From IMG/VR virus record IMGVR_UViG_3300010346_001007, positions 32,001 through 96,000 of that record: a stretch of DNA of 64,000 nucleotides. The stretch is one strand, 5' to 3'. The notes beneath the pieces are model-generated. The model was not told the DNA's origin and made no database searches. It worked only from the letters and a program-made list of their open reading frames with translations. Shown piece after piece: positions 36,539-54,157 of the stretch. A program made the position numbers and the translations under genes. The DNA is from a virus (taxonomy: Duplodnaviria; Caudoviricetes). Position 1 is the stretch's first letter; each line of letters begins with the position of its first letter.

Positions 36539-37162
36539 CTATTTCACGAGAAAATGAGACCAGTCCACATGTCTCGATTTACGGATCGTGTGAGATACCT
36601 TAATTGGTTGTGGATTATGAGGGTTAATTAATAATTTTAGTCCAACTTCGGAATTGAGCCGATTTCCTTTTTTATTGTTAATTGCTTTTGACGTTAGTAC
36701 AGTATTATCATACGTATCTTTTCCACCACGACTTAAAGGTACTACGTGGTCAATCGTAGCATGAGAAAAATCTAATTCTTCTCCTGTGTAAGCATTTATT
36801 CCATTATCACGAATGTATAATCCCTCTTTCGTCGGCTTTCCACGGAATTTCTTTTCGGGAATTTTGGCATAATTTTGTGCAATAACAACTGTAGGTACTC
36901 TGATTGTCATATGTGCGGAGGCTACGCTTAAATCCCACGGACGTACCGGAAGAGTTATCCATTCATTCCAATCGACAGGATTTACATATTCGTATGTTTC
37001 GAAATTAGGAGAACCATCATTATTGGTTTCATATACAATATCCATTGCTTTAATTACACCCGTAATTAAATCGCAGATAGTTTTACTAACCAGTTCAATC
37101 GCAACCGGCACCCAGTTTCGGTTTAATTTCAATACGATAGCTTTATTCGTTATATTTCTCAT
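36539..37162 (-). CDS. HNH endonuclease (McrA-like)
   Basis: VLKLN, RD...YTG, TIDHVVPLSRGG..N....INNKKGN. Confidence 0.85.
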   Translation of the reverse strand: MRNITNKAIVLKLNRNWVPVAIELVSKTICDLITGVIKAMDIVYETNNDGSPNFETYEYVNPVDWNEWITLPVRPWDLSVASAHMTIRVPTVVIAQNYAKIPEKKFRGKPTKEGLYIRDNGINAYTGEELDFSHATIDHVVPLSRGGKDTYDNTVLTSKAINNKKGNRLNSEVGLKLLINPHNPQPIKVSHTIRKSRHVDWSHFLVK

Positions 37163-37185
37163 ATTATGATATATATAGAAAAAAT

Positions 37186-38031
37186 TTACAGATTTCTGTA
37201 ATTTCCAATCTCTACTGTTTTACCATTCCATATCATCCAATGCATATTTCCTACTACTTCTAAACAAATGTTAGATGAAAGTTTAGGATTGTCAAGTACT
37301 CCCACGGGGGAGGACCCCCCACTGGGGGGGGTCCATTGACTTGCTTTATAATGTACTACCATCCCCGATTCCGATAAATAATTCCAATTTGGTTCTCCTA
37401 GTTGTGGAGAATGCCCCACAATTTGGTTAATTCCCGGTACACAAAGAAATTCCCGGTTGAAATCACACCATGTAATTCCGCCCACTTGAAAGGGGCCGTT
37501 TCGTGATTTTCCTGCGTTAAAAATCCAAGAATATTGATTATTGGCTATTTTATTAAGTCCAATTCTAATTTCTTGTTTTAACCAATTTGAAATATTTTCA
37601 ATAAAATTTTTACGATCATTTTTTAATTGTAATATTTTATCAGGTACATTATTTCGATGTAATCCTGCATGTGTTAATAACCATCGATTATTTAAAAAAT
37701 AAAACCATTTTAAATTATTCCAAATTTTATTTTCTGTTATATCTTGAATTAACCAATATTTCCATTGTTCATATCCAGTGCATTCCAATTTTTTATATGG
37801 AAAAGCATAATGAACATCATGGTTTCCAAATAGATGAATTCGATTAGGCATTTTCACCGAATGCACTAACCAGTCACAAGTATATTTTACTACTTCCGGA
37901 GTATCATCAATATTATCGAAATAATCCCCGAGAAAGATAACCTTATCTGCACCAACGGAACGGATTATTTTTTCTACTTCATCGACTTTATGATGAATAT
38001 CCGGAATAATTAAAACAATTTCATTATTCAT
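37186..38031 (-). CDS. calcineurin-like metallophosphoesterase
   Basis: DIH, GDYFD, GNHD, THAG, QIVGHS. Confidence 0.85.
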   Translation of the reverse strand: MNNEIVLIIPDIHHKVDEVEKIIRSVGADKVIFLGDYFDNIDDTPEVVKYTCDWLVHSVKMPNRIHLFGNHDVHYAFPYKKLECTGYEQWKYWLIQDITENKIWNNLKWFYFLNNRWLLTHAGLHRNNVPDKILQLKNDRKNFIENISNWLKQEIRIGLNKIANNQYSWIFNAGKSRNGPFQVGGITWCDFNREFLCVPGINQIVGHSPQLGEPNWNYLSESGMVVHYKASQWTPPSGGSSPVGVLDNPKLSSNICLEVVGNMHWMIWNGKTVEIGNYRNL

Positions 38032-38047
38032 CCGAACATTATACAAT

Positions 38048-38098
38048 GAACTACCCCTACGCTAAAGACGTAGGAGTTTTCTGGCGACTCAAAGATAA
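38048..38098 (+). mobile_element. isolated IS200/IS605-family end-like hairpin (non-autonomous remnant)
   Basis: GAACTACCCCTACGCTAAAGACGTAGGAGTTT: stem CCTACG/CGTAGG with CTAAAG loop, preceded by AACTACCC. Confidence 0.55.
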
Positions 38099-38115
38099 AT
38101 GATAGATTATTAATA

Positions 38116-38472
38116 TTATTTAAATGGATTAATAATAACCGATTTGTCTTTTTTCTCCCATCCTGCCGCCGCCATTTCTTCCTCGGTTACTACAGTTAAA
38201 TCTTCCTTAGTAGTCATGAGCATGACTGTAATGTTTTTTTCCTTAAATGCGGGGCCATATGGTTGAAGAAGCTTCTGAAATGCGGGCGCTATCATCATTT
38301 TATGACCCGGAGTGGGAGCATCAACTTTAATAATCAGAATGCTGTTATTTTTAAGTTCATTAACATTAATAACGGTTACATTGTCCGTTGGCAAAGTAAT
38401 TTCTTGGTTTAACTTTTCTGTTACATCATTGGTTACAGTTTTTTCTGAATTTGTATTTGTTTCATCACTCAT
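38116..38472 (-). CDS. hypothetical protein
   Basis: 118-aa ORF in the minus-strand operon. Confidence 0.6.
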   Translation of the reverse strand: MSDETNTNSEKTVTNDVTEKLNQEITLPTDNVTVINVNELKNNSILIIKVDAPTPGHKMMIAPAFQKLLQPYGPAFKEKNITVMLMTTKEDLTVVTEEEMAAAGWEKKDKSVIINPFK

Positions 38473-38602
38473 ATTTATTTTTCTTTTTCATTTTAGCACG
38501 ATTCCATTTTATTCGGTTAAAATTTTCGTACCATCGTTTAAAATTATATCCCTTTCTTGGCACTTGGCCTTTTCCTGCACCTGTAGATTTTTTCTCAGAC
38601 AT
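38465..38602 (-). CDS. small basic hypothetical protein (45 aa)
   Basis: Manual translation MSEKKSTGAGKGQVPRKGYNFKRWYENFNRIKW...; fills the operon gap. Confidence 0.5.
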   Translation of the reverse strand: MSEKKSTGAGKGQVPRKGYNFKRWYENFNRIKWNRAKMKKKNKYE

Positions 38603-38605
38603 ATA

Positions 38606-38920
38606 CTATTTAAAATCGGAAAACAAATTAAGTCTTGTATGATATTCTTTACGAATTACTTCTGTTATCAATTCTTCAAGCCGCCGTATTACACGTATAT
38701 AACTTTTTATATCAGATTTAAGACGGATTCGCCGCCAAAATCCAGTAGCGGTTTGTAATTCTTCTTCGGCCTTTTTTATTAGGCCCCGAAGATATTCAAT
38801 ATCGCCCCTTAATTGTTCAACTCTCTTATCAAATTTATCGAAGATTTTTTTATCTCGGGCGTCCATTGCAAGTGACCATTGAAGTCCCGAGGAAATAGGA
38901 TAGGGGTTTAGGTCGTTCAT
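38606..38920 (-). CDS. coiled-coil hypothetical protein
   Basis: 104-aa ORF in the minus-strand operon. Confidence 0.55.
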   Translation of the reverse strand: MNDLNPYPISSGLQWSLAMDARDKKIFDKFDKRVEQLRGDIEYLRGLIKKAEEELQTATGFWRRIRLKSDIKSYIRVIRRLEELITEVIRKEYHTRLNLFSDFK

Positions 38921-38960
38921 AATTTTATTATTCTTTAAGTTTGTTAATACGCATGTTTGT

Positions 38961-39836
38961 TCATAGTTTATTTACAAATATTACCGTGTCAAATTCGTCT
39001 TCGGTAGGACGTTGGTAACGAGACAACATTCGGTCAATGACTTCTTCTCCTACATTTCGCCCGCCGTTGGCTCCACGTCTTGCATTACGGTCCAAAAGAG
39101 TCTGTTTGTCACATTCAAAAACGACGGCAATTGTTTCTGCTCCCCGAGTTCGGGCAATGCTAATAAAATCTTTTCGAGTTTTTGGATACATATTAGTTGC
39201 ATCAAAAATGACGCTATTTTTTTCATCCAATGCTTGTCGCATTTGACTTCGGGCCATTTCAAATGCATGAGCCGAAACGGATTGGTCATTGGAATCACCG
39301 GACAATGCCCTACGGTTATCGTCGGGGCAAATTCTAACAATAGGTCCTTTATTATTTTTAATCATATTTTTGGCATGGGTCGTTTTTCCACTACCAGGTG
39401 CCCCAATCATAATCCACGCCTTCAAGGAAGTCAAGTCCTTATTTTGTTTATCGGCACCTGCTTTAAATTCCATTTCTATATTTTTAGCTCCCACGGGATT
39501 AAGAGTATGAATGTAATATTCAGGAAATGGCAAATTAAAATCTAAGCAATATTGGACTAACCATTTAGCAGCGTCATACCCCGTTTTTACAGTAAATGTT
39601 TGATAAGGAATAATATCGTTATTTTCTTCCGTTCCAGATAAAATAGTATTTATTACAGCATAATGCTCATTAGAAAGATCATGGTCAAAAGCTACTATTT
39701 CAGGAAGTCCCCGTTCTTTAATACATTCAACAAATTCATTATATGAACGTACTATAGTCCAACTGACAGACGGCAATTTGACCCATGTAATATCATTGGG
39801 TATGCGAATATCATCTAAAAATAAATTGTAATTCAT
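38961..39836 (-). CDS. cyclic-phosphate-processing receiver-like domain fused to polynucleotide kinase
   Basis: N-terminal LFLDDIR..FDHDL..TGYD..HTLNPVG; C-terminal GAPGSGKTT, PDDNR, DATN. Confidence 0.8.
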   Translation of the reverse strand: MNYNLFLDDIRIPNDITWVKLPSVSWTIVRSYNEFVECIKERGLPEIVAFDHDLSNEHYAVINTILSGTEENNDIIPYQTFTVKTGYDAAKWLVQYCLDFNLPFPEYYIHTLNPVGAKNIEMEFKAGADKQNKDLTSLKAWIMIGAPGSGKTTHAKNMIKNNKGPIVRICPDDNRRALSGDSNDQSVSAHAFEMARSQMRQALDEKNSVIFDATNMYPKTRKDFISIARTRGAETIAVVFECDKQTLLDRNARRGANGGRNVGEEVIDRMLSRYQRPTEDEFDTVIFVNKL

Positions 39837-39852
39837 AACTATTTATATATAA

Positions 39853-40866
39853 CTAGCTCTCTTTATATTTTTCGTTAATAATTTTTCCACTCCAGAATTT
39901 TTCTAATACTTCACTTCTAAAGTTTTCTTTTGGTCTTACGACAATGCCTTCGGCGGGACCGCCCGTTGGATATTGTAATTCATTGGCTAAATTAACCAAT
40001 TCATCAATATTATATCCAAATGCGTTTCCTTCATTTACCAACGTAACCATTGGCAAGTCAAATTCATCGCAAAATTTAACCATTTGCTCGTAATCAAAAT
40101 AAATACGTTCTGTAATATCAAAAATGTTGAAAATATGCAATTCCAAATCTTTTAATCCGAGGCGGTTTTGCTGTATTTGTGGCCCACAAACTTCACCTTG
40201 AATTGCTATACTCCGATTTGGAAAGGCTTTTCTTAGTATATTTTCTAAATCATATTTTCGGGCAATTCGCCAGAATCCGTTGGTATCACTAGGTTTTAGC
40301 CAAATTTTCCGGCTGCACACACCAAATTCTGAACCATGTAGGAAGAAAGTTCCACTACACCCATCATCTTTACGAGTGATATAATATGGTCGTCCCCACA
40401 TTTCTTCTAATGCTTTGGGATAAGACCGTAAATTATCTTCATCTGTCATGATTATGAATCCAGGCAAAATTCCATAGGCCATTCCTGACAATTGGACTGG
40501 AAGGGGTTTTTCATATTTTCTAACGCCAATCCATTTTGTGACATCAGTTCCTTCTGCGATAGGACCTTTTAAGTCATAATCAAAATTTGGAAGTATAGAT
40601 AGCGGAAATACAATACCTGCCGATTCTTTTCCTCGCAATTTAATTGACCGGATTCGAAAATTTTTGTTTCTCAAAAATTCAAATTCGGGCCGTTCAGGTA
40701 ATACGGCATCGATAGCAATATATACAACCAAGTCATTTTCCTTAAACTCTCCCCGCTTGGTAATAACTTGCCAACCTAAAACTTTTGCCACATCCAGTGA
40801 ATCGGCATTAGAATGGGGTTGCACGTCATATATTCGTTGAATTGTTGCTAAATTTTCGTCATTCAT
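39853..40866 (-). CDS. ATP-dependent RNA ligase (DRB0094/Rnl5-like)
   Basis: N-terminal OB module HSNADSL..GWQV; KDDGCS (motif I), QGEVCG, FNIFD, EGIVVR. Confidence 0.88.
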   Translation of the reverse strand: MNDENLATIQRIYDVQPHSNADSLDVAKVLGWQVITKRGEFKENDLVVYIAIDAVLPERPEFEFLRNKNFRIRSIKLRGKESAGIVFPLSILPNFDYDLKGPIAEGTDVTKWIGVRKYEKPLPVQLSGMAYGILPGFIIMTDEDNLRSYPKALEEMWGRPYYITRKDDGCSGTFFLHGSEFGVCSRKIWLKPSDTNGFWRIARKYDLENILRKAFPNRSIAIQGEVCGPQIQQNRLGLKDLELHIFNIFDITERIYFDYEQMVKFCDEFDLPMVTLVNEGNAFGYNIDELVNLANELQYPTGGPAEGIVVRPKENFRSEVLEKFWSGKIINEKYKES

Positions 40867-43538: not shown

Positions 43539-45041
43539 ATGACTGATACAAAAGTAATTATAAACTGGACTTATGATGGTAATTCACATGATGGGTTTAA
43601 GCTACTCCGTTCAACCGATGGCGGTAGTACTTGGCCTGTTACTATTGATATTTCGGAACCTACCGATAGAACATATGAAGATAATGATATATTGTTAGGA
43701 GAAACTTATCATTATAAATTAGCCGCTTATAAAGGTGAAACTACTGGGAATTATAGTGATCCTGTCCAAGTAACTATTACAATTAATGTAAATACTCTTA
43801 CATTTACTGTAACCGCACAACCAGATACTAAAGAATTTGACGGCAATACGGATTCTTCTAAATCGCCAATTGTAGTAGGGAAATTTTATAAAGGAGATTC
43901 GGGTACTTTTTCTCAACATTTTGATAGTCCAAAAATTAGTGAATATGCTAATATAACTCCAACCAGTTCAATAAACAATATATCTGAAAAAGAATATGAT
44001 TGTGAATTTATAGATGCTGAGGGTGAAATTACTTGGGATAGAGGAAATAGTACAGATATTATTGTTGTGCCAACTGATTTAAATATGTTACTGGGCGAAG
44101 GAGATCCTGAAGTTGGGATTGGAAATGAATTTCGAATGACTTATGGAACTAAATTTGTTGCCTTTAGTACTGCAACTGTTGAGGAATCTGAAGTTACATA
44201 TATGTTAACTTCTTCCAATGCAATAGATTGGGGAATTGGATATGAATTGGATAAGGAAATTTATCCCCAACAAGTTTTATTTACTGGACCTCATGGATTT
44301 ATTATGACCTATGGATACGACGAAAATGGTATTTTTATATATTATCTTATAGGAGAAAATGGGAATGACTCCGACTTTGACACTATTGATTATGATGGTA
44401 ATGTATCTGATCTTATTTATACAAGTGATGGATGGGTAGGATGTGGCACAAACAAATCAATAATAAATGTTAATAATAATTTCGTATCGGCGGTTTATCA
44501 AGTAAATAATGATGCAGGAAACAATGACCGATTAAATGGCGTTGTGTATGTTGGAGGAAAATATTATGTGGCATCCGAAGATAATGACGTAAATATAATA
44601 GATCCTTTTCATTCACAAGGAATTTATGTTTCAACGGATTTACAATCATGGAGTACAATAACCGTTGATGGTGTTAATCCCGGAGAATTTCCGGCTCTTA
44701 GAGGAATCGCATATGGAGATGGTAAAATAGTAGCTGTGGGGCAAGCGGGAACTGTTATTACCTCGTCAAATGGAACAGACTGGAAAATGCTTTCGCTTCC
44801 AGATTTAATTTCAATGCCCGATAATGAGAATTTCAAACTTCCATTAGAATCCATATCTTGGAATTCGGAGAATTCGTATTTTATAATAACTAATGGATAT
44901 GGATATGTTTATAAGACTTCCGATTTAGAATCATTTGAACTTATTGGAACATACGATGGAATGTTTCAAAATTTTGAACAATCCAATTATTTTTCTAATA
45001 TAGATAAAACGGTAATTTATGGCGCTCCCGGCGGGAGTTGA
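43539..45041 (+). CDS. Fn3 + YDG-like + beta-propeller protein (probable virion fibre/adhesin)
   Basis: W..GFKLLRS..YED..YHYKLAAY (Fn3); KEFDGNT; IAYGDGKIVAVG, TSSNGTDW repeats. Confidence 0.7.
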   Translation: MTDTKVIINWTYDGNSHDGFKLLRSTDGGSTWPVTIDISEPTDRTYEDNDILLGETYHYKLAAYKGETTGNYSDPVQVTITINVNTLTFTVTAQPDTKEFDGNTDSSKSPIVVGKFYKGDSGTFSQHFDSPKISEYANITPTSSINNISEKEYDCEFIDAEGEITWDRGNSTDIIVVPTDLNMLLGEGDPEVGIGNEFRMTYGTKFVAFSTATVEESEVTYMLTSSNAIDWGIGYELDKEIYPQQVLFTGPHGFIMTYGYDENGIFIYYLIGENGNDSDFDTIDYDGNVSDLIYTSDGWVGCGTNKSIINVNNNFVSAVYQVNNDAGNNDRLNGVVYVGGKYYVASEDNDVNIIDPFHSQGIYVSTDLQSWSTITVDGVNPGEFPALRGIAYGDGKIVAVGQAGTVITSSNGTDWKMLSLPDLISMPDNENFKLPLESISWNSENSYFIITNGYGYVYKTSDLESFELIGTYDGMFQNFEQSNYFSNIDKTVIYGAPGGS

Positions 45042-45096
45042 ACCCACAACCTGCGGATTAGAAGTCCGCCGCTCTATCCAATTGAGCTACGGGAGC
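45020..45096 (-). tRNA. trnR: tRNA-Arg(UCU) with encoded CCA
   Basis: Reverse complement GCTCCCGTAGCTCAATTGGATAGAGCGGCGGACTTCTAATCCGCAGGTTGTGGGTTCAACTCCCGCCGGGAGCGCCA forms a cloverleaf with anticodon TCT. Confidence 0.95.
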
Positions 45097-46833: not shown

Positions 46834-48093
46834 TTATTTACATTCAATTAAGTGAGTTATTTTAACCTGGCTATTTCGATAAACAACCAATTCATCGTGA
46901 TATAAACTATATCCCTTTTTGGCCCAAATAGAATCATATCCCGAATGGTTTTTTGTGCCAGAATGTACAGTTTTAATTTTTCCCATTGCAAATTTACAGA
47001 TAAACAACCAACCCGATTCTCCTACACCACCCTGTCCCCATCGGCCAAAAGTATAACCTAAAGATTTAGAAGAATTGATGGCCCCATAAATACCATTGCC
47101 AAACATGCTCCCGGCAATAGAAGCGGTACTCGGAGGACGTATTTTCAATCCCGACTTCAATATACTTAAACAATTAGCCTGAGAAGTACCATGAAATACT
47201 TCAACGATGGGAGTTAAAGTTGATTCAAAGGCGGCGGTCATTTCATGGATATTTACTTGATAAATTTCCCGGATTTTAACCTTATCATATCCATGCATTT
47301 TCCTTTTACTGGATGTAAAGAATTTTTCAAGCCGCCTTCTTTCTGAATCATCGGTCAAAATATCCAAATCTACCTTAAAGATTTTTTCTTGGGGTGAATT
47401 TGATTTATTTGAAGAATCTGATTTTGTAAGGGCCATATAAGACGATTCTAGTGCATCCAACAAATCATTTTGTTTTTGCAGAGATAATTCTCCTGGAATA
47501 AGCGTTTCACAATCGAATTTTCTCATTCCTATATTTTGAGGAATAAGTCGCAAATATTGATTTAACAAATCATCCGCTTCTTTGTTATAGTTTTGGGCTC
47601 GAACATGAACAGAAAGCTTGGCTAATAGATTTCGAGCTTCTTCGATACCTTCCATCGTTACAATGCCCATGGGAGTCGAAAATAATCCTGTTTTCGAACT
47701 GTATGTAATTTGCGTGTCCTGAGTAATACGATGGATATTAGATTTTACAAGCTGATCAATCAATCGTTCTAATTTGGGGGATGATGATTTAACGAGTTGA
47801 GTTCGAGCAATAGAATGTAAATCTTTATTTTTAACCGACGTTCCTGCGGAGACTTCTTTATTACCGTTTCCAATGGTTTTTAAATAGGTATATCCTTTTT
47901 TTAATTTTTCTTGAATTTTTTTATCGAAATATTTTTCACCCCGATTCCATTGGCCCGAATCTCCCTTATATCCCACCCGCCCCCAGGTGGCTTTAACGGT
48001 TCCATCATCGAACAATTGGCCCGTCCACCACTTGTTTGAATTAACTTTGGCTTCGGCTTTAATTAATTTGACTTCACGAATTAGCGTTGACAT
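46834..48093 (-). CDS. poly(ADP-ribose) polymerase-like protein (WGR + regulatory + catalytic domains)
   Basis: WGRVG; YLRLIPQ; FHGT, GSMFGNGIYGA, SKSLGY, YDS, HDELVVY (H-Y-E triad). Confidence 0.88.
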   Translation of the reverse strand: MSTLIREVKLIKAEAKVNSNKWWTGQLFDDGTVKATWGRVGYKGDSGQWNRGEKYFDKKIQEKLKKGYTYLKTIGNGNKEVSAGTSVKNKDLHSIARTQLVKSSSPKLERLIDQLVKSNIHRITQDTQITYSSKTGLFSTPMGIVTMEGIEEARNLLAKLSVHVRAQNYNKEADDLLNQYLRLIPQNIGMRKFDCETLIPGELSLQKQNDLLDALESSYMALTKSDSSNKSNSPQEKIFKVDLDILTDDSERRRLEKFFTSSKRKMHGYDKVKIREIYQVNIHEMTAAFESTLTPIVEVFHGTSQANCLSILKSGLKIRPPSTASIAGSMFGNGIYGAINSSKSLGYTFGRWGQGGVGESGWLFICKFAMGKIKTVHSGTKNHSGYDSIWAKKGYSLYHDELVVYRNSQVKITHLIECK

Positions 48094-48145
48094 AACTTTG
48101 AGAAAATTCAAGGTTTTTGAATTGTCTAATTCTCATATTTCCCTC

Positions 48146-48174
48146 ATTATACTGATTTTTTCGGGACAAGTCAA
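48146..48174 (-). promoter_or_regulatory. sigma70-type promoter of the PARP gene
   Basis: Minus strand TTGACT-N17-TATAAT. Confidence 0.65.
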
Positions 48175-48476
48175 CAACTTTTTTAGAATTCAAAGAGAAT
48201 CTGAAATGGAACGTACTTGGCTATTTTTTGGTTTTAACCGAAGTAAAAATAGCTGCATTGTAAGATTTCTTTTTGAACGGGGAGAATCGTTTAAATAATA
48301 ATGAAAAAATCGTCCTTTACCAACTTGTTGTCCAACTGGGTCCAATTAAAGATATGGGTGAGATTGGTCTGTATAATATTTTTGCAGATAATAATAACAG
48401 TTTTTATTAGGTCGTATAGGTATTCCATGCTTTCGGCAAGGTCGCATTAAAGTTTTTGTGCGTTTAATCTTAAAGG

Positions 48477-48698
48477 GGGCAGATGGTTCCAATTACTTAT
48501 ATTATATATAATATTCGAAGAGATTTAAGGATTAATTTTTTATCGTTAAACTTTGAATATTTGAGATTTTAGTTTTGATCCCGCAGGTTCGGGGTAATCT
48601 TTCTCTTTCTCTTTGGGAGTATCATCGTAAGACGATAAATGCATATCATTAGATACAGAAAATATTATATAAAATATGTTCATCTTTCCCATCTGCCC
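48477..48698 (-). ncRNA. candidate structured ncRNA downstream of the DIP1984-like gene
   Basis: Ends pair as GGGCAGATGG/CCATCTGCCC; second helix 48499-48515 with 48661-48677; internal hairpins; no ORF. Confidence 0.6.
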
Positions 48699-48706
48699 AA
48701 AATATA

Positions 48707-49153
48707 TTAATCTTCTATAGTTGTACTGGCATTATATATATCAATCGCATCTTGCAAACTATTAATATCCTGCTGTAATTCTAACATGAGTCGATCAGCC
48801 TCTTTTTGGTTAATAAAGCTATCCCACGTATAGGTTCGAGCGGGACTAGAAGTACCTGTATATACTACTTCTTCTCCTTCTTTTTTCGTTAATGAATTTA
48901 TATATGCAATGCGAGACTTATATTCAGCCATTCGTTCAATCTTGGAATAAATTCCAATGTTTGCTTTAGCTATTTTCCCTTTAAGTTCGCCCAATTGACG
49001 GGATGTTTCGAGAATGCTTTCCCATATTCGCATACGGTCAATTTCTGAAACCGAATCCGATCTTCGGGCATTTTCTCGTTGGAAAATACTTTGTAATCTG
49101 ACCAGTTCACCGGCTAACCTATTTTTTTGTTTTAATGCTTGTGCAAGTGTCAT
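48707..49153 (-). CDS. DIP1984-like coiled-coil protein
   Basis: MTLAQALKQK.., IAKAN, C-terminal LQDAIDIYNAST pattern. Confidence 0.7.
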   Translation of the reverse strand: MTLAQALKQKNRLAGELVRLQSIFQRENARRSDSVSEIDRMRIWESILETSRQLGELKGKIAKANIGIYSKIERMAEYKSRIAYINSLTKKEGEEVVYTGTSSPARTYTWDSFINQKEADRLMLELQQDINSLQDAIDIYNASTTIED

Positions 49154-49252
49154 AATATTATTCTAGTTTAGAACTAATCTAACATATTTGACAAAAAATG
49201 TCAAGTCCTTTTGTATTTTCTCGGATATATTCATATTTATTTTATAGGAAAT

Positions 49253-50299
49253 ATGTCTAAAAAGAAACCGAGAATTATATTCATTTGTAAGCGAAGACCG
49301 GCCCAATATGGAGCATCTTATGGTCTTTTGAATTCCTGTCGTTTTTTGTGCAATGCCCTTATAAATATGGGTGCCGAAGCGAAAACGGTGGAAGTAATTG
49401 ATAACAATTTTATTGACCGAGAAGTTCATTTATATAAACCAACTCATGTATTCATTGAAGCATTGTGGGTTGTGCCAGAAAAATTTGAAGTGCTTATTCC
49501 ATTACATTCCAAGGTGCAGTGGCATGTAAGATTACATAGTAATACGCCGTTTATATCTAATGAAGGAATTGCTATTCCGTGGATTAAGAAATACATAGAA
49601 TTAAGTAAAAAATATCCACAATTTCATGTATCTCCAAATTCATTCCGATTGGTTAATGATTTATGGCAATCATTACATTATAAATCAATATATTCGCCCA
49701 ACATTTATCAACCCCATGTAACACCGTGGGAAGATAAAGAAATTGAAGTTCCTTGTCAAAAGAAAAAGGAAACAAATGTTATAAATATTGGTTGTTTTGG
49801 AGCTATCAGGCCAATGAAAAATCTACTAATTCAAGCAATGGCTGCAATTGCATTTTCTGAGGAATTGGGTAAAACATTACATTTTCATGTTAATCAATCT
49901 CGGCAAGAAATGAGTGGGGAAAATACTTATAAAAATTTGGTTTCTCTATTTGAAAATTCCAAACATAAACTGGTTAATCATGCATGGCTTTTGCATTCCG
50001 ATTTTATACAAGTTATTAAACAAATGGATTTAGGAATGCAAGTAACATTTTCGGAAACATTTAATATAGTTTCCGCAGATTTTGCTACTTCTATGGTGCC
50101 AATTGTTGGTACATCTGAGATTGAATGGATGAATTGGCTATATAAAGCTAAACCTACTGATTTAGATAATATTGTATCTCATTTATGGCTGGCATGGTTA
50201 GGTAGAAATTGGGGATTACATTATTTTAATTTAACAGGATTAAAAAAATGGAATAAAAATGCTCGTCAAGTTTGGAAAAATTATCTAAAACTTATGTAA
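49253..50299 (+). CDS. GT-B glycosyltransferase-like protein
   Basis: GCFGAIRPMKN, QVTFSETFNIVSAD, VPIVGT. Confidence 0.7.
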   Translation: MSKKKPRIIFICKRRPAQYGASYGLLNSCRFLCNALINMGAEAKTVEVIDNNFIDREVHLYKPTHVFIEALWVVPEKFEVLIPLHSKVQWHVRLHSNTPFISNEGIAIPWIKKYIELSKKYPQFHVSPNSFRLVNDLWQSLHYKSIYSPNIYQPHVTPWEDKEIEVPCQKKKETNVINIGCFGAIRPMKNLLIQAMAAIAFSEELGKTLHFHVNQSRQEMSGENTYKNLVSLFENSKHKLVNHAWLLHSDFIQVIKQMDLGMQVTFSETFNIVSADFATSMVPIVGTSEIEWMNWLYKAKPTDLDNIVSHLWLAWLGRNWGLHYFNLTGLKKWNKNARQVWKNYLKLM

Positions 50300-50466: not shown

Positions 50467-51288
50467 TTACCAGACTTCATCTATATCTGTTTTATGATCT
50501 AATTCTTTATCGGGCAAAATTAATGTAGATAATTTAGATTGTAATTTCCCGCCTTCAATTCTTTCTTTGGCCATGTCAAAGTAAGTTTTACTTTTTTCTA
50601 CGCCAATAAATCCCCGGCCCAATCGAACTGCTACGTCTCCGGTTGTTCCCGAACCCATGAAGGGGTCACAAATTATATCATTTTTATATGAAAATAATTT
50701 GATACATCTTAATGGTAATTCAGGAGGAAACGCCGCAGGATGTTTACTTCGGGTTTCGGGATTCATTTCCCATAGATTTTTAACAAATCGCATGAAATCA
50801 CGGCCATTGATGGTAGATTCCCCCCTTTCTTTTCTTCGCCAATTCCCTTTATAAAATACTAAAATACATTCGTTGGGGTCAATGACAAAAGGTGCCCGAG
50901 CAGACCGCCAACTCCCCCAACAAGTTTTGTTACTTCCCAATTTTTTCCAAATAATTGTACGATAATACTTAAATCCTTCTTGCTGAACAATACGTGTATA
51001 ATCCGCAGAAATGGGATAATTTATATCATCTGCACCTTTCTTTTTATTTAAATGGATGGGGGTAACGGAAAAAGGAATATTAATACAAAATCTTCCTTCT
51101 TCGGTCATATGATTATATAGTTTTTTAATCCATTTTCGGCTCCACTCTAGGTATTCTAAATAGGGCATTGTATCATCATGTTTATCATATTCAACGCCAA
51201 CATTATATGGGGGAGAGGTAATTACCAAATTAATTGGAACATCGGTTAAATCAGCATGTAATATATCATCATTGATAAGTTTAAGCAT
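50467..51288 (-). CDS. beta-class DNA methyltransferase (SPPY; likely N4-C or N6-A)
   Basis: TSPPYN, HPAAFP, DPFMGSGTT. Confidence 0.9.
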   Translation of the reverse strand: MLKLINDDILHADLTDVPINLVITSPPYNVGVEYDKHDDTMPYLEYLEWSRKWIKKLYNHMTEEGRFCINIPFSVTPIHLNKKKGADDINYPISADYTRIVQQEGFKYYRTIIWKKLGSNKTCWGSWRSARAPFVIDPNECILVFYKGNWRRKERGESTINGRDFMRFVKNLWEMNPETRSKHPAAFPPELPLRCIKLFSYKNDIICDPFMGSGTTGDVAVRLGRGFIGVEKSKTYFDMAKERIEGGKLQSKLSTLILPDKELDHKTDIDEVW

Positions 51289-51294
51289 AAAATA

Positions 51295-52167
51295 TTATAT
51301 AGCCTCCGGAAATTTTTTAAGCAATAAATTTCCATTCCTTACATATTCAGGATTAATGTCAGATGAATAAAAAGGGACTCCTATCCACTGGCAACAGAGA
51401 CACTCACTCCCACTCCCAGCAAAGGGGATATATACACTACCCAAAAATCGGTCATCTGATTTCATTAAGCATGATTTAAGTAATTTCATTGTTAATTTTT
51501 GAGGTTTTTGGGTAGGATGTTCTATAATTTCATGGTCAGAATGATTTCGTTTATTTCCTATAAATATATCATTACAAGTATGACAAAAGAAAATCCGTTC
51601 TCCTGCCCCAGCGCCTCCGGCGAGAGCAGGAACTTTGATTACATCTCTCCCTTTAGCTCCCAATTCGTTTGCTGTATAAATGGTATCAGTATTATTTTTA
51701 GACAATCTTCCCTTTGTGCCTTTACGAATTTTTCCTGCCGAATTTTTCAAGAAAGTTTCGGTATAAGGTTCTCTTACTTCATCTTCATTAAAAATTCTCT
51801 TTTTAGAATCTTTCCAAAATACAATGATGGATTCATGACTGCGCTGCCAAAAATTTGATCCGGCAGTATTTTTATTTGTATAATGCCAAATTAACCATCG
51901 GTGGGGAAGGGATAATTTCACCGAAAGATGGGCTAAAATTTCACTGAATCCATAAATAAATCCAGTTCCAGTTGGTGTTAGAATTCTTTCACATTCTTTA
52001 ATCCATTCTTCACACCATTTAATATAATCTCCTAATTTTTGATTATCAGTTGAAATTCCAAAATCTTTTCCTATATTATATGGAGGGTCTGCAATTATGC
52101 ATTGCATGGACGTATCGGGCAGAGTTTTGGCATATTCTATTATGTCACGTTCTACAATAGTACTCAT
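51295..52167 (-). CDS. beta-class DNA adenine methyltransferase
   Basis: ADPPYN, HPTQKP, PFAGSGS. Confidence 0.9.
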   Translation of the reverse strand: MSTIVERDIIEYAKTLPDTSMQCIIADPPYNIGKDFGISTDNQKLGDYIKWCEEWIKECERILTPTGTGFIYGFSEILAHLSVKLSLPHRWLIWHYTNKNTAGSNFWQRSHESIIVFWKDSKKRIFNEDEVREPYTETFLKNSAGKIRKGTKGRLSKNNTDTIYTANELGAKGRDVIKVPALAGGAGAGERIFFCHTCNDIFIGNKRNHSDHEIIEHPTQKPQKLTMKLLKSCLMKSDDRFLGSVYIPFAGSGSECLCCQWIGVPFYSSDINPEYVRNGNLLLKKFPEAI

Positions 52168-52624: not shown

Positions 52625-54157
52625 ATGAAAATATTAAAGCGCAAAACAAAGAAATCAGTTAATCCTGTTTTGACTGCGCTTCCTCAAAATCCTCTAGCTT
52701 CGGCAATGATGGAAAACTCTAATGAGGCATTTACAGAAAATCTAGCTCTAACTAATAAATCTACGCTAAATTATGTACTAGATTGGTTTGGCTGCGGGGG
52801 TGCATTGCGACAACGAGCATCTTCGGATGCAACAAAAATATTTTTGAAGGCGTTTGCGCAAGATGCGCTCATGGCAACTAAAATCTTGTTTTATTTTCGA
52901 GATGTTCGTGGGGGTCAGGGAGAACGAGCTACATTTCGTAATATTATAAAATATCTTGCCGTATATCATCCGGAAGTTGTCAGTAAAAATATGGAAAACA
53001 TTCCGTTTTATGGGCGGTATGATGATCTATATGCTTTAGAAGGAACTCCCTTAGAAAAAGAAATGTTTCAATTTATTGCTCGCCAATTGAAACAAGACCT
53101 TCGTAATATGAAGAAGGGCGAGCCGGTATCATTGTTGGGCAAATGGTTAAAATCGGAAAATACTAGCTCTCCGGAATCTTGCCGTTTAGCAAAATTAACA
53201 AGAGAAGCCCTAGAATTATCATCTAAACGGTATCGAAAGGTTCTATCATCTTTGCGTAAGCATATTGATGTAATTGAACGAAAAATGTGCGGAAAAGAAT
53301 GGAATGAAATTAATTTTGAAAATGTTCCCTCAAAAGCCAGTTTAATTTATCGTAGTGCTTTTGATCGCCATGCGCACAAAAAATATAAAGAATATTTGAA
53401 AAAGGTAGAACAAGGAAGTGCTAAAATCAATGCGGGAGCAGTATATCCCTATGAGATTTTTAGAAGCTTGATTCGTAATTCCGTATCCAAGGAAGTAATT
53501 AAAGCCGCCGATTTACAGTGGGCCAATATGCCGAATTGGATGGGAGAAAACGAACATCGAGGATTGGTAATTGCCGACGTATCGGGTTCTATGCTTTCAG
53601 GTGTGCCGAATATACTTGTAGCCGTTTCTTTAGCTCTTTACTTTGCGGAACGAAATGTGGGTCCGTTTAAGGATATGTGGTTGAATTTTTCATCGAGACC
53701 GACTTTTCAACGATTTGTTGGAAATAATCTCCGTGAAAAGTACCTAAATATGGATAAAGATAATTGGGGAGGTTCAACTAATTTACAAGCCGCATTTAAC
53801 CTTATTTTAAATTCCGCAGTTAAAAATAAAGTTAAAGAAAAAGATATGCCGGAAGTTTTATATATAATTTCTGACATGGAATTTAATCAAGCTTGCACTG
53901 GAAATGATAAGACTAATTTCCGAGTCATGAAAGAAAAATATAAAGAGGCCGGATATAAATTGCCTCGGGTTGTATGGTGGAATGTTGCCAGTCAAAATGA
54001 CAATTTCCCAATCCGAGCAGATGACAATAACACAGCTTTAGTTTCGGGATGTTCTCCGAGCATTTTGAAGCAACTGCTATCGAGTAAGAATTTTACCCCG
54101 TTGGGTATAATGCAAGAAACAATTAATTCGCCTCGGTATGACCGGGTTGTTATTTAA
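52625..54157 (+). CDS. DUF2828-like TROVE/Ro60-related protein with vWA domain
   Basis: FTENLA, RDVRGGQGER, YGRYDDL, KWLKSE, DVSGSM (MIDAS), GGSTNL, ISDMEF, WNV. Confidence 0.8.
   Translation: MKILKRKTKKSVNPVLTALPQNPLASAMMENSNEAFTENLALTNKSTLNYVLDWFGCGGALRQRASSDATKIFLKAFAQDALMATKILFYFRDVRGGQGERATFRNIIKYLAVYHPEVVSKNMENIPFYGRYDDLYALEGTPLEKEMFQFIARQLKQDLRNMKKGEPVSLLGKWLKSENTSSPESCRLAKLTREALELSSKRYRKVLSSLRKHIDVIERKMCGKEWNEINFENVPSKASLIYRSAFDRHAHKKYKEYLKKVEQGSAKINAGAVYPYEIFRSLIRNSVSKEVIKAADLQWANMPNWMGENEHRGLVIADVSGSMLSGVPNILVAVSLALYFAERNVGPFKDMWLNFSSRPTFQRFVGNNLREKYLNMDKDNWGGSTNLQAAFNLILNSAVKNKVKEKDMPEVLYIISDMEFNQACTGNDKTNFRVMKEKYKEAGYKLPRVVWWNVASQNDNFPIRADDNNTALVSGCSPSILKQLLSSKNFTPLGIMQETINSPRYDRVVI

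What the first reader, a model, noticed from the sequence alone, without database searches (positions are those of the whole stretch)
48477..49153. DIP1984-like coiled-coil gene followed by a ~220-nt end-paired RNA with a periodic A-rich loop: candidate ribonucleoprotein system
Seen: 8 nt after the stop of the 148-aa coiled-coil gene, the minus strand begins a non-coding block. Its ends form a perfect GC-rich 10-bp helix (48689-48698 with 48477-48486). Inside it are a nested 17-bp helix with one mismatch (48661-48677 with 48499-48515), hairpins at 48624-48636 and 48577-48599, and an AAGAGA/TCTCTT pairing (48602-48607 with 48518-48523). These enclose an apparently unpaired tract of 7-8-nt quasi-repeats (TCAAAAC TAAAATC TCAAATAT TCAAAGT TTAACGA TAAAAAAT). 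It is not a terminator, a tRNA or an ORF. Inference: a co-transcribed structured RNA whose periodic loop could bind successive protomers of the oligomeric coiled-coil protein. I know of no established function for this protein family.
Basis: partly seen in the sequence, partly recalled or inferred. Interest (0 to 1): 0.85.

Follow-up and report, generated by a model that had tools for sequence, protein, structure and literature searches.

The report
Phage circular heptad-repeat RNA with partner gene
Right behind a small helical-protein gene of unknown function, this huge sewage-sludge phage encodes a conserved, tightly folded RNA of about 230 bases with eight evenly spaced 7-base units. Public environmental RNA data show this RNA joined head to tail, most simply as a circle, so it points to an undescribed protein-RNA system.

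Summary

It is a real RNA family.
- The same stem-closed element lies downstream of the homologous 148-aa gene, on the same strand, in dozens of phage contigs. These include homologues of only 28-41% identity and the 595-kb phage LR756511.
- The closing stem and central hairpin covary: 18 of 22 pairs change on both sides, and 93.8% of cells pair against 75.7% in shuffles.
- G-U outnumbers A-C 61 to 9, which fixes the strand as that of the gene.
- No Rfam family matches.

New here:
- Activated-sludge metatranscriptome contigs stop at the element's borders.
- One contig bridges its 3' end back to its 5' end (48701 to 48475). Two others have the form of a closed 230-nt cycle. This indicates a circular RNA.
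- An RNA ligase, kinase and phosphoesterase cassette lies 8 kb away.

The protein has the fold of 3KDQ (TM 0.67), taken from recollection to be DIP1984, and is modelled as self-associating. Binding of the protein to the RNA is untested.

This scan noted the DIP1984-like gene plus heptad RNA pair at least 40 times on other DNA, twice with head-to-tail joins. I found no paper describing it.

The parts
49176..49204 (-). sigma-70-like promoter TTGACA-17-TAGATT (TG-extended) in front of the gene
   Evidence: 10 of 12 consensus matches. This is a consensus match only. Similar TTGAC(A/T)-N17 sites appear in front of neighbouring genes in L006 and L007.
48707..49153 (-). 148-aa helical protein with DIP1984/DUF6847-like fold (three long helices plus a beta-hairpin)
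   Evidence: ORF. AF2 model pLDDT 94. Best PDB fold match 3kdq_A, TM 0.67, E 3e-3. NF038048 gives a collinear but sub-threshold match. There are 296 homologues and 1501 cluster representatives at E<=1e-3.
48472..48701 (-). the RNA as found in environmental RNA contigs: a 230-nt unit whose 3' end (48472) is joined to its 5' end (48701)
   Evidence: table 8: X17 48472-48701 plus a repeat of 48472-48498; X20 48678-48701 then 48472-48702; X15 48605-48701, one G, then 48475-48630 (table 5 joint 'goes back 227'); X16 48480-48683.
48689..48698 (-). P1, 5' strand of the closing stem (pairs with 48477-48486)
   Evidence: In the family, 12 of 12 pairs change on both sides.
48477..48486 (-). P1, 3' strand of the closing stem
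48676..48684 (-). 5' strand of a loop-E/sarcin-ricin-type internal loop (GAUGAACAU here; GAUGGUAGG or GUGAAAU in relatives)
   Evidence: alignments. The motif assignment rests on my own knowledge of 5S rRNA loop E (GAUGGUAG/GAGAGUAG) and of the AGUA/GAA motif.
48489..48500 (-). 3' strand of the same internal loop (AUAAGUAAUUGG here; GAGAGUAG in relatives)
48661..48677 (-). P2, 5' strand (pairs with 48499-48515)
   Evidence: I2. In the family, cognate duplexes average -10.2 kcal/mol against -5.3 for non-cognate pairs.
48499..48515 (-). P2, 3' strand
48621..48656 (-). variable hairpin region P3 (two hairpins here: 48641-48656 and 48621-48636)
   Evidence: Length and sequence vary between relatives.
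48597..48614 (-). near-invariant purine linker AAAGAGAAAGAGAAAGAU (family consensus ACGAnAAAGAGAAAGAU)
   Evidence: AAGAG can pair with CUCUU at 48517-48523 (P4). That pairing is conserved but does not covary (helix 2).
48580..48594 (-). P5, G+C-rich hairpin
   Evidence: In the family, 5 of 5 pairs change on both sides (helix 3).
48522..48578 (-). array of eight 7-nt units U(C/U/A)AAnnn (one unit is 8 nt), predicted single-stranded
   Evidence: offsets; conserved register in 30 relatives. Chains of 8 or more units occur in 20 of 58 downstream regions against 1 of 111 controls.
48517..48523 (-). UCUCUUC, 3' strand of P4
48190..48470 (-). decayed copy of the ~60-aa Cys-rich basic ORF that follows the RNA in most relatives (ATG replaced by AAG, CYYC changed to CYYY, in-frame TAA)
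   Evidence: The closest relative, L103, has a truncated 43-aa copy.
39853..40866 (-). phage RNA ligase (PHA02142 OB-fold plus RNA_ligase), a candidate enzyme for closing the circle (inference only)
37186..39836 (-). cREC_REC plus P-loop kinase (38961-39836) and a calcineurin-like phosphoesterase (37186-38046), the end-healing partners of the ligase (inference only)
   Evidence: The cRec-ligase linkage in jumbo phages is described in PMC7824862, section 3.4.9.

Best explanation
The gene and the element form one transcription unit. A sigma-70-like promoter drives the 148-aa DIP1984-fold gene and, 8 nt after its stop, a ~230-nt non-coding RNA. The RNA folds into a long stalk: closing stem P1, a loop-E-type internal loop, then P2. 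The stalk opens into a junction carrying variable hairpins, an invariant purine linker, a G+C hairpin and a ~57-nt single-stranded array of eight 7-nt U(C/U)AAnnn units. The RNA is cut out of the transcript in the U-rich flanks, 3 nt before and 5 nt after P1. P1 holds the two ends side by side, and they are then ligated, giving a covalently closed circle. The ligase could be the phage's own RNA ligase with its kinase and phosphoesterase partners, or a host ligase. The circle would resist exonucleases and present the heptad array as a periodic landing strip. The most likely occupant is the self-associating DIP1984-like protein, whose deepest-conserved residues are K8, K10 and N11 plus Q/D/D/N at the C-terminal helix end. 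The result would be an undescribed ribonucleoprotein, perhaps working in RNA surveillance or repair during infection. Shown here: the fold, conservation, covariation, strand, gene linkage and head-to-tail junction in RNA data. Inferred: the processing enzymes, the ligase, the protein-RNA contact and the biological role.
For: Structure: z -4.5.

Family: covariance model R1 finds 35 full-length copies at E<=1e-12 and three more at E<1e-25. All lie on the gene's strand and downstream of it.

Covariation: 93.8% of cells pair against 75.7% in shuffles; 18 of 22 pairs change on both sides; 0 of 500 shuffles reach any measure; slid controls pair at 37-54%. For P2, cognate duplexes average -10.2 against -5.3 kcal/mol for non-cognate pairs.

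Strand: G-U 61 against A-C 9.

Deep linkage: homologues of 28-41% identity also carry a stem-closed heptad RNA directly after the gene. These are the high-GC clade, L081/84/89/93, L095/96 and LR756511. In several, an intrinsic terminator follows the RNA.

Head-to-tail junction: the X15 contig bridges it with 97 and 156 letters. The X17 and X20 contigs are each 260 nt, which equals 230 + 30 and is the form of a closed cycle at k=31. Contigs from four studies stop at 48472-48480 and 48683-48702, which is a weak hint of discrete ends.

Copy number: single copy in the record.

Repair enzymes: an RNA ligase, kinase and phosphoesterase cassette is in the window.

Protein self-association model: score 0.65, best of 3 controls 0.08. 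The mark was reached by 20 of 30 proteins solved as pairs of one chain and by 1 of 23 solved as single chains. The runs agree in at least 85% of contacts and the partner pLDDT is at least 85. The counts hold only roughly here, because four copies and my own alignment were used. A pass may also reflect likeness to the solved 3KDQ crystal.
Against: 1. Only one contig bridges the junction by the tool's own 31-letter rule. The other two wrap by 27 and 24 letters.
2. The laid data are contigs, so they show neither strand, nor ends, nor abundance. DNA can be present in RNA libraries.
4. The junction differs between runs (UUU-UUU in X17 and X20, one extra base in X15).
5. No protein-RNA binding was tested.
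6. The ligase cassette is 8 kb away and is a common phage defence against tRNA nucleases.
7. In most relatives an ORF starts ~11 nt after the RNA with no terminator, which also fits a cis-acting role.
8. P4 and the heptads are conserved but do not covary, so their state (paired, free or bound) is not established.
Confidence: 0.6

Rival explanations
1. It is a linear, processed 3'-UTR or intergenic RNA element. It might act as an mRNA stabiliser, a processing site, or a translational coupler for the small ORF that follows it in relatives. On this view the head-to-tail joins are minor by-products, from in-cell ligation by repair ligases or from library preparation, and have no function.
For: No terminator or promoter separates the gene, the RNA and the next ORF in most relatives, and the ORF starts ~11 nt after P1. 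Only one contig bridges the junction with more than 31 letters on each side. Contigs cannot show the proportion of circles.
Against: The small ORF is decayed here and in L103, and is absent in many clades, while the RNA is kept. In distant clades the RNA is followed directly by a terminator, so it is not a leader. Eight register-conserved single-stranded heptads and a loop-E motif are more elaborate than a processing hairpin needs. Junction-type contigs come from three separate studies.
Confidence: 0.2
2. The RNA works without the DIP1984-like protein. It would act as a sponge or decoy that soaks up a host RNA-binding protein or nuclease recognising U(C/U)AA-type single strands, for example an Hfq/ProQ/KH-type protein or a defence RNase. 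The neighbouring gene would then be linked for another reason, such as biogenesis.
For: It is circular or stem-closed, has multiple identical short single-stranded sites, and sits in a phage with many counter-defence genes (PARP-like enzyme, methylases, RNA repair). Circular RNA sponges are an established concept in eukaryotes (my own knowledge).
Against: The gene-RNA pair is kept together across very distant lineages with different hosts and base composition, and the heptad consensus changes with the protein clade: UCAAnnn, GUUAAAA, CGCAAAA. That pattern fits a co-evolving cognate pair better than a fixed host target.
Confidence: 0.13
3. It is a Y-RNA-like cofactor of the DUF2828/DUF7788 protein (PHROG 'RNA-binding protein') encoded 4 kb away, and/or of the RNA-repair enzymes, by analogy with Ro60-Y RNA-RtcB operons.
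For: The DUF2828/DUF7788 gene lies within 4-6 kb in the window and in L101-L103. Both this RNA and Y RNAs have paired 5' and 3' ends. The RNA-repair cassette is in the window.
Against: That synteny is only seen within one closely related clade. The distant clades keep the RNA next to the DIP1984-like gene, not next to DUF2828. There is no YrlA or other Y RNA hit in Rfam and no tRNA-like module. The DUF2828 protein has no sequence match to solved Ro60 structures.
Confidence: 0.05
4. It is a DNA-level feature, such as a MITE-like element with terminal inverted repeats, a cruciform or an origin, and not an RNA.
For: It has perfect terminal inverted repeats, and the opposite strand folds equally well in this one sequence.
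Against: It is single copy. Its position and orientation behind one gene are fixed across divergent genomes. G-U exceeds A-C 61 to 9, which only makes sense for one transcribed strand. It is present in RNA-library contigs with a permuted junction that the genome lacks.
Confidence: 0.02

Closest known systems
DIP1984 family / Pfam DUF6847 (NCBIfam NF038048, PF20935; crystal structure 3KDQ of a Corynebacterium diphtheriae protein; often annotated 'septicolysin')
   Same: About 150 aa. Three long helices plus a beta-hairpin. Best PDB fold match, TM 0.67. Collinear weak HMM match over positions 2-144 of 149. A distant relative, P0235, carries a faint PF20935 hit.
   Different: The HMM score is far below the family cut-off (12.3 against 70 bits), and Pfam gives no hit for the window protein. 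No function is published for the family: the held literature only repeats the 'septicolysin' label on Acinetobacter plasmids.
Ro60 (Rsr) with Y RNAs in bacterial and phage RNA-repair contexts (reviewed in PMC10870794, as cited by PMC7824862)
   Same: A small structured RNA with paired ends, encoded next to its presumed protein partner. It occurs in phages and sits in a genome with RNA ligase and end-healing enzymes.
   Different: There is no TROVE protein next to it, no tRNA-like module and no Rfam Y RNA hit. The partner is a helical-bundle protein, not a ring. A heptad array and circularisation are not Y RNA features.
TRAP-trp leader and HutP-hut RNA (Bacillus): oligomeric proteins reading evenly spaced short RNA units (my own knowledge)
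   Same: Evenly spaced short single-stranded units (8 x 7 nt) next to a gene for a protein modelled as self-associating.
   Different: The period is 7 nt rather than triplets spaced at 5 nt. The protein fold is unrelated. The RNA is a stand-alone, stem-closed and probably circular molecule, not an mRNA leader. Binding is untested.
Known circular RNAs of prokaryotes and their viruses: group I/II intron circles, archaeal ligase-closed circular sRNAs, viroid-like/Obelisk RNAs, DucS of Bacillus altitudinis (PMC10504365)
   Same: A head-to-tail junction in RNA data, and ends brought together by a terminal helix.
   Different: It is DNA-encoded in a tailed phage. Rfam reports no intron or self-cleaving ribozyme. 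It is not a replicon. It belongs to a conserved family tied to one protein gene.
Bacterial 5S rRNA loop E / sarcin-ricin (AGUA/GAA) motif (my own knowledge)
   Same: Relatives carry GAUGGUAG on the 5' strand and GAGAGUAG on the 3' strand next to P1. The window has the GAA/AGUA core.
   Different: This is only a local motif. Rfam reports no 5S rRNA match, and the rest of the RNA is unrelated.

Membership tests
DIP1984 / DUF6847 protein family | Scores above the curated cut-off of NF038048 or PF20935 | tested here: not met
   NF038048: 12.3 bits, E 0.14, cut-off 70. In the six-frame search: 10.1 bits. No Pfam hit at E<=0.01.
DIP1984 / DUF6847 protein family | Fold of the solved member 3KDQ (helical bundle with a beta-hairpin, ~150 aa) | tested here: met
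   AF2 model pLDDT 94. Foldseek top hit 3kdq_A: probability 1.00, TM 0.67/0.65, E 3e-3.
Any Rfam 15 RNA family (including RAGATH motifs, Y RNAs, 5S, ribozymes, introns) | Covariance-model match | tested here: not met
   Nothing at gathering score except a distant tRNA. At E<=10, the element itself is overlapped only at its 3' end by one chance-level hit (STnc430, 17.5 bits against a gathering score of 47); the other four hits lie outside it.
Conserved structured RNA (general criterion) | Compensatory base changes in predicted helices across homologues | tested here: met
   P1 12 of 12 and P5 5 of 5 pairs change on both sides; 0 of 500 shuffles reach the observed values. P2 by the cognate against non-cognate duplex test. 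P4 is not supported by covariation.
Covalently closed circular RNA | 3'-to-5' junction present in RNA-derived sequence | tested here: met
   the X15 contig bridges 48701 to 48475 with 97 and 156 letters. The X17 and X20 contigs are 260 nt (230 + 30) and repeat their own start by 27 and 24 letters, which is below the tool's 31-letter rule.
Covalently closed circular RNA | The junction is absent from DNA of the same samples; exonuclease (RNase R) resistance | not testable with these tools
The assembled genome has one copy and no tandem repeat.
Ro60-Y RNA module | TROVE/Ro60 gene adjacent; Y RNA with a Ro-binding stem and a tRNA-like domain | tested here: not met
   The adjacent gene is the DIP1984-like one. 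There is no tRNA-like hit and no YrlA hit. The DUF2828 protein 4 kb away has no match to solved Ro60 chains.
TRAP/HutP-type periodic RNA-protein recognition | Evenly spaced short units in single-stranded RNA | tested here: met
   Eight units at offsets 0, 7, 14, 22, 29, 36, 43 and 50. The register is conserved in relatives. The array is enriched against controls.
TRAP/HutP-type periodic RNA-protein recognition | An oligomeric protein contacts one unit per protomer | not testable with these tools
   Only protein self-association could be modelled. No RNA-protein modelling or assay is available.
MITE / DNA transposon remnant | Multiple dispersed copies with terminal inverted repeats | tested here: not met
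   One copy in the 119-kb record. The locus is fixed relative to the gene.

The most novel reading that the evidence does not exclude
Huge phages make an abundant, covalently closed ~230-nt RNA circle. It is cut from the 3' end of the DIP1984-like gene's transcript and sealed by RNA-repair ligases. Its eight-heptad arc is coated by an oligomer of that protein. The particle would be one phage member of a gene-plus-RNA pairing which, according to unchecked notes of this scan, reaches into bacteria, archaea and giant viruses. It may act in RNA damage sensing or repair, or in countering host RNases. This would be the first natural trans-acting circular RNP of a DNA phage and would give a function to DUF6847.
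Probability: 0.4. Interest if true: 0.92.

Novelty: categorically new. Interest (0 to 1): 0.85.

Why it matters
If it holds, three things follow.
1. DUF6847/DIP1984 is a widespread protein family whose structure was solved in 2009 but which has no known function. It would gain an obligate RNA partner.
2. A new ornate RNA class, with a 7-nt periodic array and a loop-E motif, would be added to those known from phages.
3. A DNA phage would be shown to make a specific circular non-coding RNA. The phage RNA ligases, so far viewed only as tRNA repair enzymes, would be its likely makers.

The system is small (about 0.7 kb) and could be tested directly by expression in E. coli.

Tried and rejected
**Searches that found nothing**
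- Rfam at gathering and E<=10 thresholds found no family.
- I considered hairpin and hammerhead ribozymes, because loop-E-like and purine-rich motifs occur in them. Rfam gives no hit, the CUGAnGA-like string is not conserved across relatives, and the cut sites lie at the far end of a ~35-bp stalk from the conserved core. I rejected self-cleavage as the likely route.
- Sequence searches of the PDB with the protein profile gave only coiled-coil noise.
- A reverse-transcriptase template (retron or DRT-like) was considered. No RVT_1 is in the record, although the record is only ~34% complete.
- No RtcB is in the record.
- No relatives appear in 185,579 species genomes. A second try with a more diverse alignment could not be run because it had no conserved stretch.
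- The small Cys-rich ORF has no Pfam family.

**Leads not confirmed**
- Earlier scan notes say phage T5 carries the pair and that the RNA's start is Rfam RAGATH-27. Neither PF20935 nor RF03100 matched T5 AY543070 at E<=1, so I could not confirm this.

**Read data not used as evidence**
- The parts of the 1.2-kb stretch without contig cover in the RNA runs (48100-48471 in all four runs; most of the gene in X17 and X20) are not used as evidence of low mRNA level. Contig depth cannot rank genes.

**Tests that could not decide**
- The strand cannot be decided from the single sequence, because both strands fold equally well.
Full report
**What the window is**

The window is bases 32001-96000 of a 119-kb IMG/VR virus record estimated at 34% complete. 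That makes it a fragment of a huge phage of roughly 350 kb. G+C is about 34%. Public DNA runs that hold the stretch are from activated sludge, wastewater and anaerobic digesters.

**The observation**

- The 148-aa ORF is 48707-49153(-).
- Eight nucleotides after its stop, the minus strand starts the 10-bp G+C stem 48698-48689/48486-48477.
- The 17-bp A+U helix 48677-48661/48515-48499 is nested inside it.
- RNAfold gives -53.3 kcal/mol against -33.7 +/- 4.4 for shuffles (z -4.5).
- The 'quasi-repeats' are eight units at offsets 0, 7, 14, 22, 29, 36, 43 and 50 of 48578-48522.

The reverse strand of this single sequence folds just as well. The single sequence therefore cannot tell the strand.

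**It is a conserved RNA family tied to the gene**

The protein has 296 homologues in the 90% clusters and 1501 cluster representatives at E<=1e-3. Many sit on contigs of 200-360 kb.

I fetched 6 viral and 80 metagenome loci. In most of them the sequence right after the stop starts a stem-closed element of 180-236 nt. Its terminal arms differ in sequence but stay complementary: GGGGCAGTTTGGG, GGGGTGGCTTGT, GGGCGATCCGT, GGACACCCATTGAAGT and others.

A covariance model built from 14 copies found 35 full-length copies at E<=1e-12. All are on the gene's strand. Some lie 200-1300 nt further downstream, where extra genes have been inserted. Three more were found in large contigs.

On that alignment:
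- 93.8% of cells pair, against 75.7% in shuffles.
- 18 of 22 pairs change on both sides.
- P1 scores 12 of 12 and the central hairpin P5 scores 5 of 5.
- No shuffle of 500 reaches any measure.
- Slid partners pair at only 37-54%.
- P2 was tested by folding each 5' segment with every 3' segment. Cognate pairs average -10.2 kcal/mol and non-cognate pairs -5.3, and 12 of 30 cognates rank first.
- P4 (AAGAG/CUCUU) is nearly invariant, so covariation neither supports nor refutes it.
- G-U pairs outnumber A-C 61 to 9. This fixes the folded strand as the gene's strand.

The linkage reaches far beyond the close clade.
- A high-G+C clade (protein ~40% identical) has its own ~190-nt version, with a ~28-bp closing stalk and CAA-type heptads.
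- Clades at 28-36% identity (L081, L084/85, L089/90/92, L093, L095, L096) have shorter stem-closed A-rich heptad RNAs directly after the gene. In several of them an intrinsic terminator follows directly.
- The only GenBank phage hit is the 595-kb uncultured phage LR756511 (35% identity). It has a GUUAAAA-heptad version.
- A crude finder sees chains of 8 or more units in 20 of 58 downstream regions, against 1 of 111 control regions.

The element is single copy in this record. No relative of the protein was found in 185,579 species genomes.

**Anatomy**

Read on the minus strand:
1. P1.
2. An internal loop. In relatives its strands read GAUGGUAGG (or GUGAAAU) and GAGAGUAG. From my own knowledge these are the two strands of bacterial 5S rRNA loop E, or the AGUA/GAA sarcin-ricin core. 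The window has GAUGAACAU and AUAAGUAAU.
3. P2.
4. A junction with variable hairpins.
5. The near-invariant linker ACGAnAAAGAGAAAGAU.
6. Hairpin P5.
7. Eight U(C/U)AAnnn heptads.
8. CUCUUUU, then back down P2 and P1.

**It exists as a discrete RNA joined head to tail**

Six metatranscriptome runs hold 18-31% of the words of a 1.2-kb query. I laid four of them, each from a different study. The results by run:

| Run | Contig length | What it covers |
|---|---|---|
| X16 | 204 nt | 48480-48683 |
| X17 | 260 nt | 48472-48701, then 48472-48498 again |
| X20 | 260 nt | 48678-48701, then 48472-48702 |
| X15 | 254 nt | 48605-48701, one extra G, then 48475-48630 |

The X15 joint is listed by the tool as 'goes back 227', with 97 and 156 letters on its two sides.

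A length of 260 equals 230 + 30, which is what a closed 230-nt cycle gives in a k=31 graph. The wrap pieces in X17 and X20 are 27 and 24 letters, below the tool's 31-letter bridging rule. Strictly, then, one contig bridges the junction and two have the form of a cycle.

The genome has no tandem copy. Molecules bearing the junction are therefore not the phage DNA as assembled.

In RNA sense the unit is 5'-UUU-P1...P1-CCUUU-3', with the ends joined. That closes P1 with a U-rich loop of about 8 nt. Relatives have conserved U-rich flanks at the same places: AACAAUUU(GU) before P1 and C(A)CAUUUyyUAUG after it.

Limits of this evidence:
- Contigs show no strand, no true ends and no abundance.
- DNA can contaminate RNA libraries.

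**Who could close it**

The record has no RtcB. The window does encode three relevant enzymes:
- an RNA ligase (PHA02142 OB-fold plus RNA_ligase, 39853-40866);
- next to it, a cREC_REC plus P-loop kinase protein (38961-39836);
- a calcineurin-like phosphoesterase (37186-38046).

This is the heal-and-seal set described for jumbo phages, including the cRec-ligase linkage (PMC7824862, section 3.4.9). A stem that holds two single-stranded tails together resembles a broken hairpin loop, which is the classical substrate of phage RNA ligase 1 (my own knowledge). That these enzymes act on this RNA is inference only.

**The protein**

The AF2 model (pLDDT 94) has three long helices and a beta-hairpin. 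Its best PDB match is 3KDQ, a Corynebacterium diphtheriae protein of unknown function (TM 0.67). The family HMM aligns end to end but far below its cut-off.

Four copies were modelled together:
- Score 0.65; best of 3 controls 0.08.
- The mark was reached by 20 of 30 proteins solved as pairs of one chain and by 1 of 23 solved as single chains.
- The runs agree in at least 85% of contacts, and the partner pLDDT is at least 85.
- The counts hold only roughly here, because four copies and my own alignment were used.
- The pass may reflect likeness to the 3KDQ crystal.

The residues conserved across the deepest alignment are A6, L7, K8, K10 and N11, plus Q, D, D and N near the C-terminal helix end. 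They lie outside the modelled protein-protein interface, at one tip of the bundle. I propose that tip as the RNA-contact site. This is inference.

**Other context**

- A sigma-70-like promoter (TTGACA-17-TAGATT) precedes the gene. The next strong one (TTGACT-17-TATAAT) precedes the PARP-like gene. No minus-strand terminator follows the RNA.
- In most close relatives a ~60-aa basic Cys-rich ORF (..KCRRH..CYYCWRK..PEERLL..IFGEGRF) starts ~11 nt after P1. It has no Pfam family.
- In this window that ORF is decayed, with a lost start, a lost Cys and an in-frame TAA. In the closest relative it is truncated. In many clades it is absent. The RNA therefore does not depend on it.
- Synteny with a DUF2828/DUF7788 'RNA-binding protein', DNA methylases and a PARP-like gene is shared within the close clade but not beyond it.

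**Comparison with what is known**

- No Rfam 15 family matches.
- Paper searches for DIP1984, DUF6847, PF20935 and RAGATH-27 found nothing functional.
- Searches on phage circular RNAs found no description of such an RNA.

Notes from this scan are AI notes and were treated as leads.
- They record the DIP1984-like gene plus heptad RNA pair at least 40 times on other DNA.
- Two follow-ups (e1-5381716, e1-5679992) also saw head-to-tail joins in environmental RNA. My result on this DNA is an independent instance.
- The claim in some notes that phage T5 carries the pair, and that Rfam RAGATH-27 covers the RNA's start, was not confirmed. Neither PF20935 nor RF03100 matches T5 at E<=1.

**Verdict**

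| Claim | My estimate |
|---|---|
| Real, conserved, strand-specific structured RNA linked to the DIP1984-fold gene | near certain |
| Discrete species with a head-to-tail junction, most simply a circle | about 0.7 |
| Binds the neighbouring protein through the heptad array | plausible, about 0.5, untested |
| Biological role | unknown; RNA surveillance, repair or counter-defence is my best guess |

Noticed in passing
window 36539-40866 (-): An RNA heal-and-seal cassette: HNH endonuclease (36539-37162), calcineurin-like phosphoesterase (37186-38046), cREC_REC plus AAA_33 kinase (38961-39836), and an RNA ligase with a PHA02142 OB-fold (39853-40866).
   Followed up: partly
window 46834-48111 (-): A phage PARP-like protein with WGR, PARP regulatory and PARP catalytic domains. 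It has its own strong promoter-like site (48174-48146). The same gene follows the RNA region in L006, L101 and L102.
   Followed up: partly
window 48190-48470 (-); intact copies e.g. L033:2180-2362, L006:3675-3863: A conserved ~60-aa basic Cys-rich ORF (KCRRH..CYYCWRK..PEERLL..IFGEGRF) starts ~11 nt after the RNA in most close relatives. It has no Pfam family. In the window it is a decayed relic with an in-frame TAA.
   Followed up: partly
window 52625-54157 (+): A 510-aa DUF2828 + DUF7788 protein (phrog_850, annotated 'RNA-binding protein', E 7.5e-144). It is syntenic in L101-L103 and has no sequence match to solved structures.
   Followed up: partly
window 50467-52167 (-): Two adjacent N6/N4 DNA methyltransferase genes (273 and 290 aa). 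Methylase genes occupy the same position in relatives.
   Followed up: no
window 45020-45096 (-): tRNA-Arg (anticodon TCT), the only tRNA in the window.
   Followed up: no
window 49211-50299 (+): A 362-aa ORF transcribed divergently from the DIP1984-like gene. It has no Pfam, NCBIfam or PHROG family. A gene of 309-351 aa holds the same position in L101-L103.
   Followed up: no
L096:3165-3245: In a distant relative the heptad RNA is followed directly by a stretch with a tRNA-type T-arm (GGTTCGAGTCC). It looks like a tRNA gene but was not run through ARAGORN.
   Followed up: no
L100 (LR756511.1) about 1990-2075: In the 595-kb phage, a 27-codon Lys/Pro-rich ORF (MAKGKTPKKEPKKAPKK...) sits between the DIP1984-like gene and its heptad RNA.
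   Followed up: no
L103:14367-14447: The closest relative's contig carries an IS605 OrfB / Cas12f-like TnpB gene near the dCMP deaminase gene.
   Followed up: no
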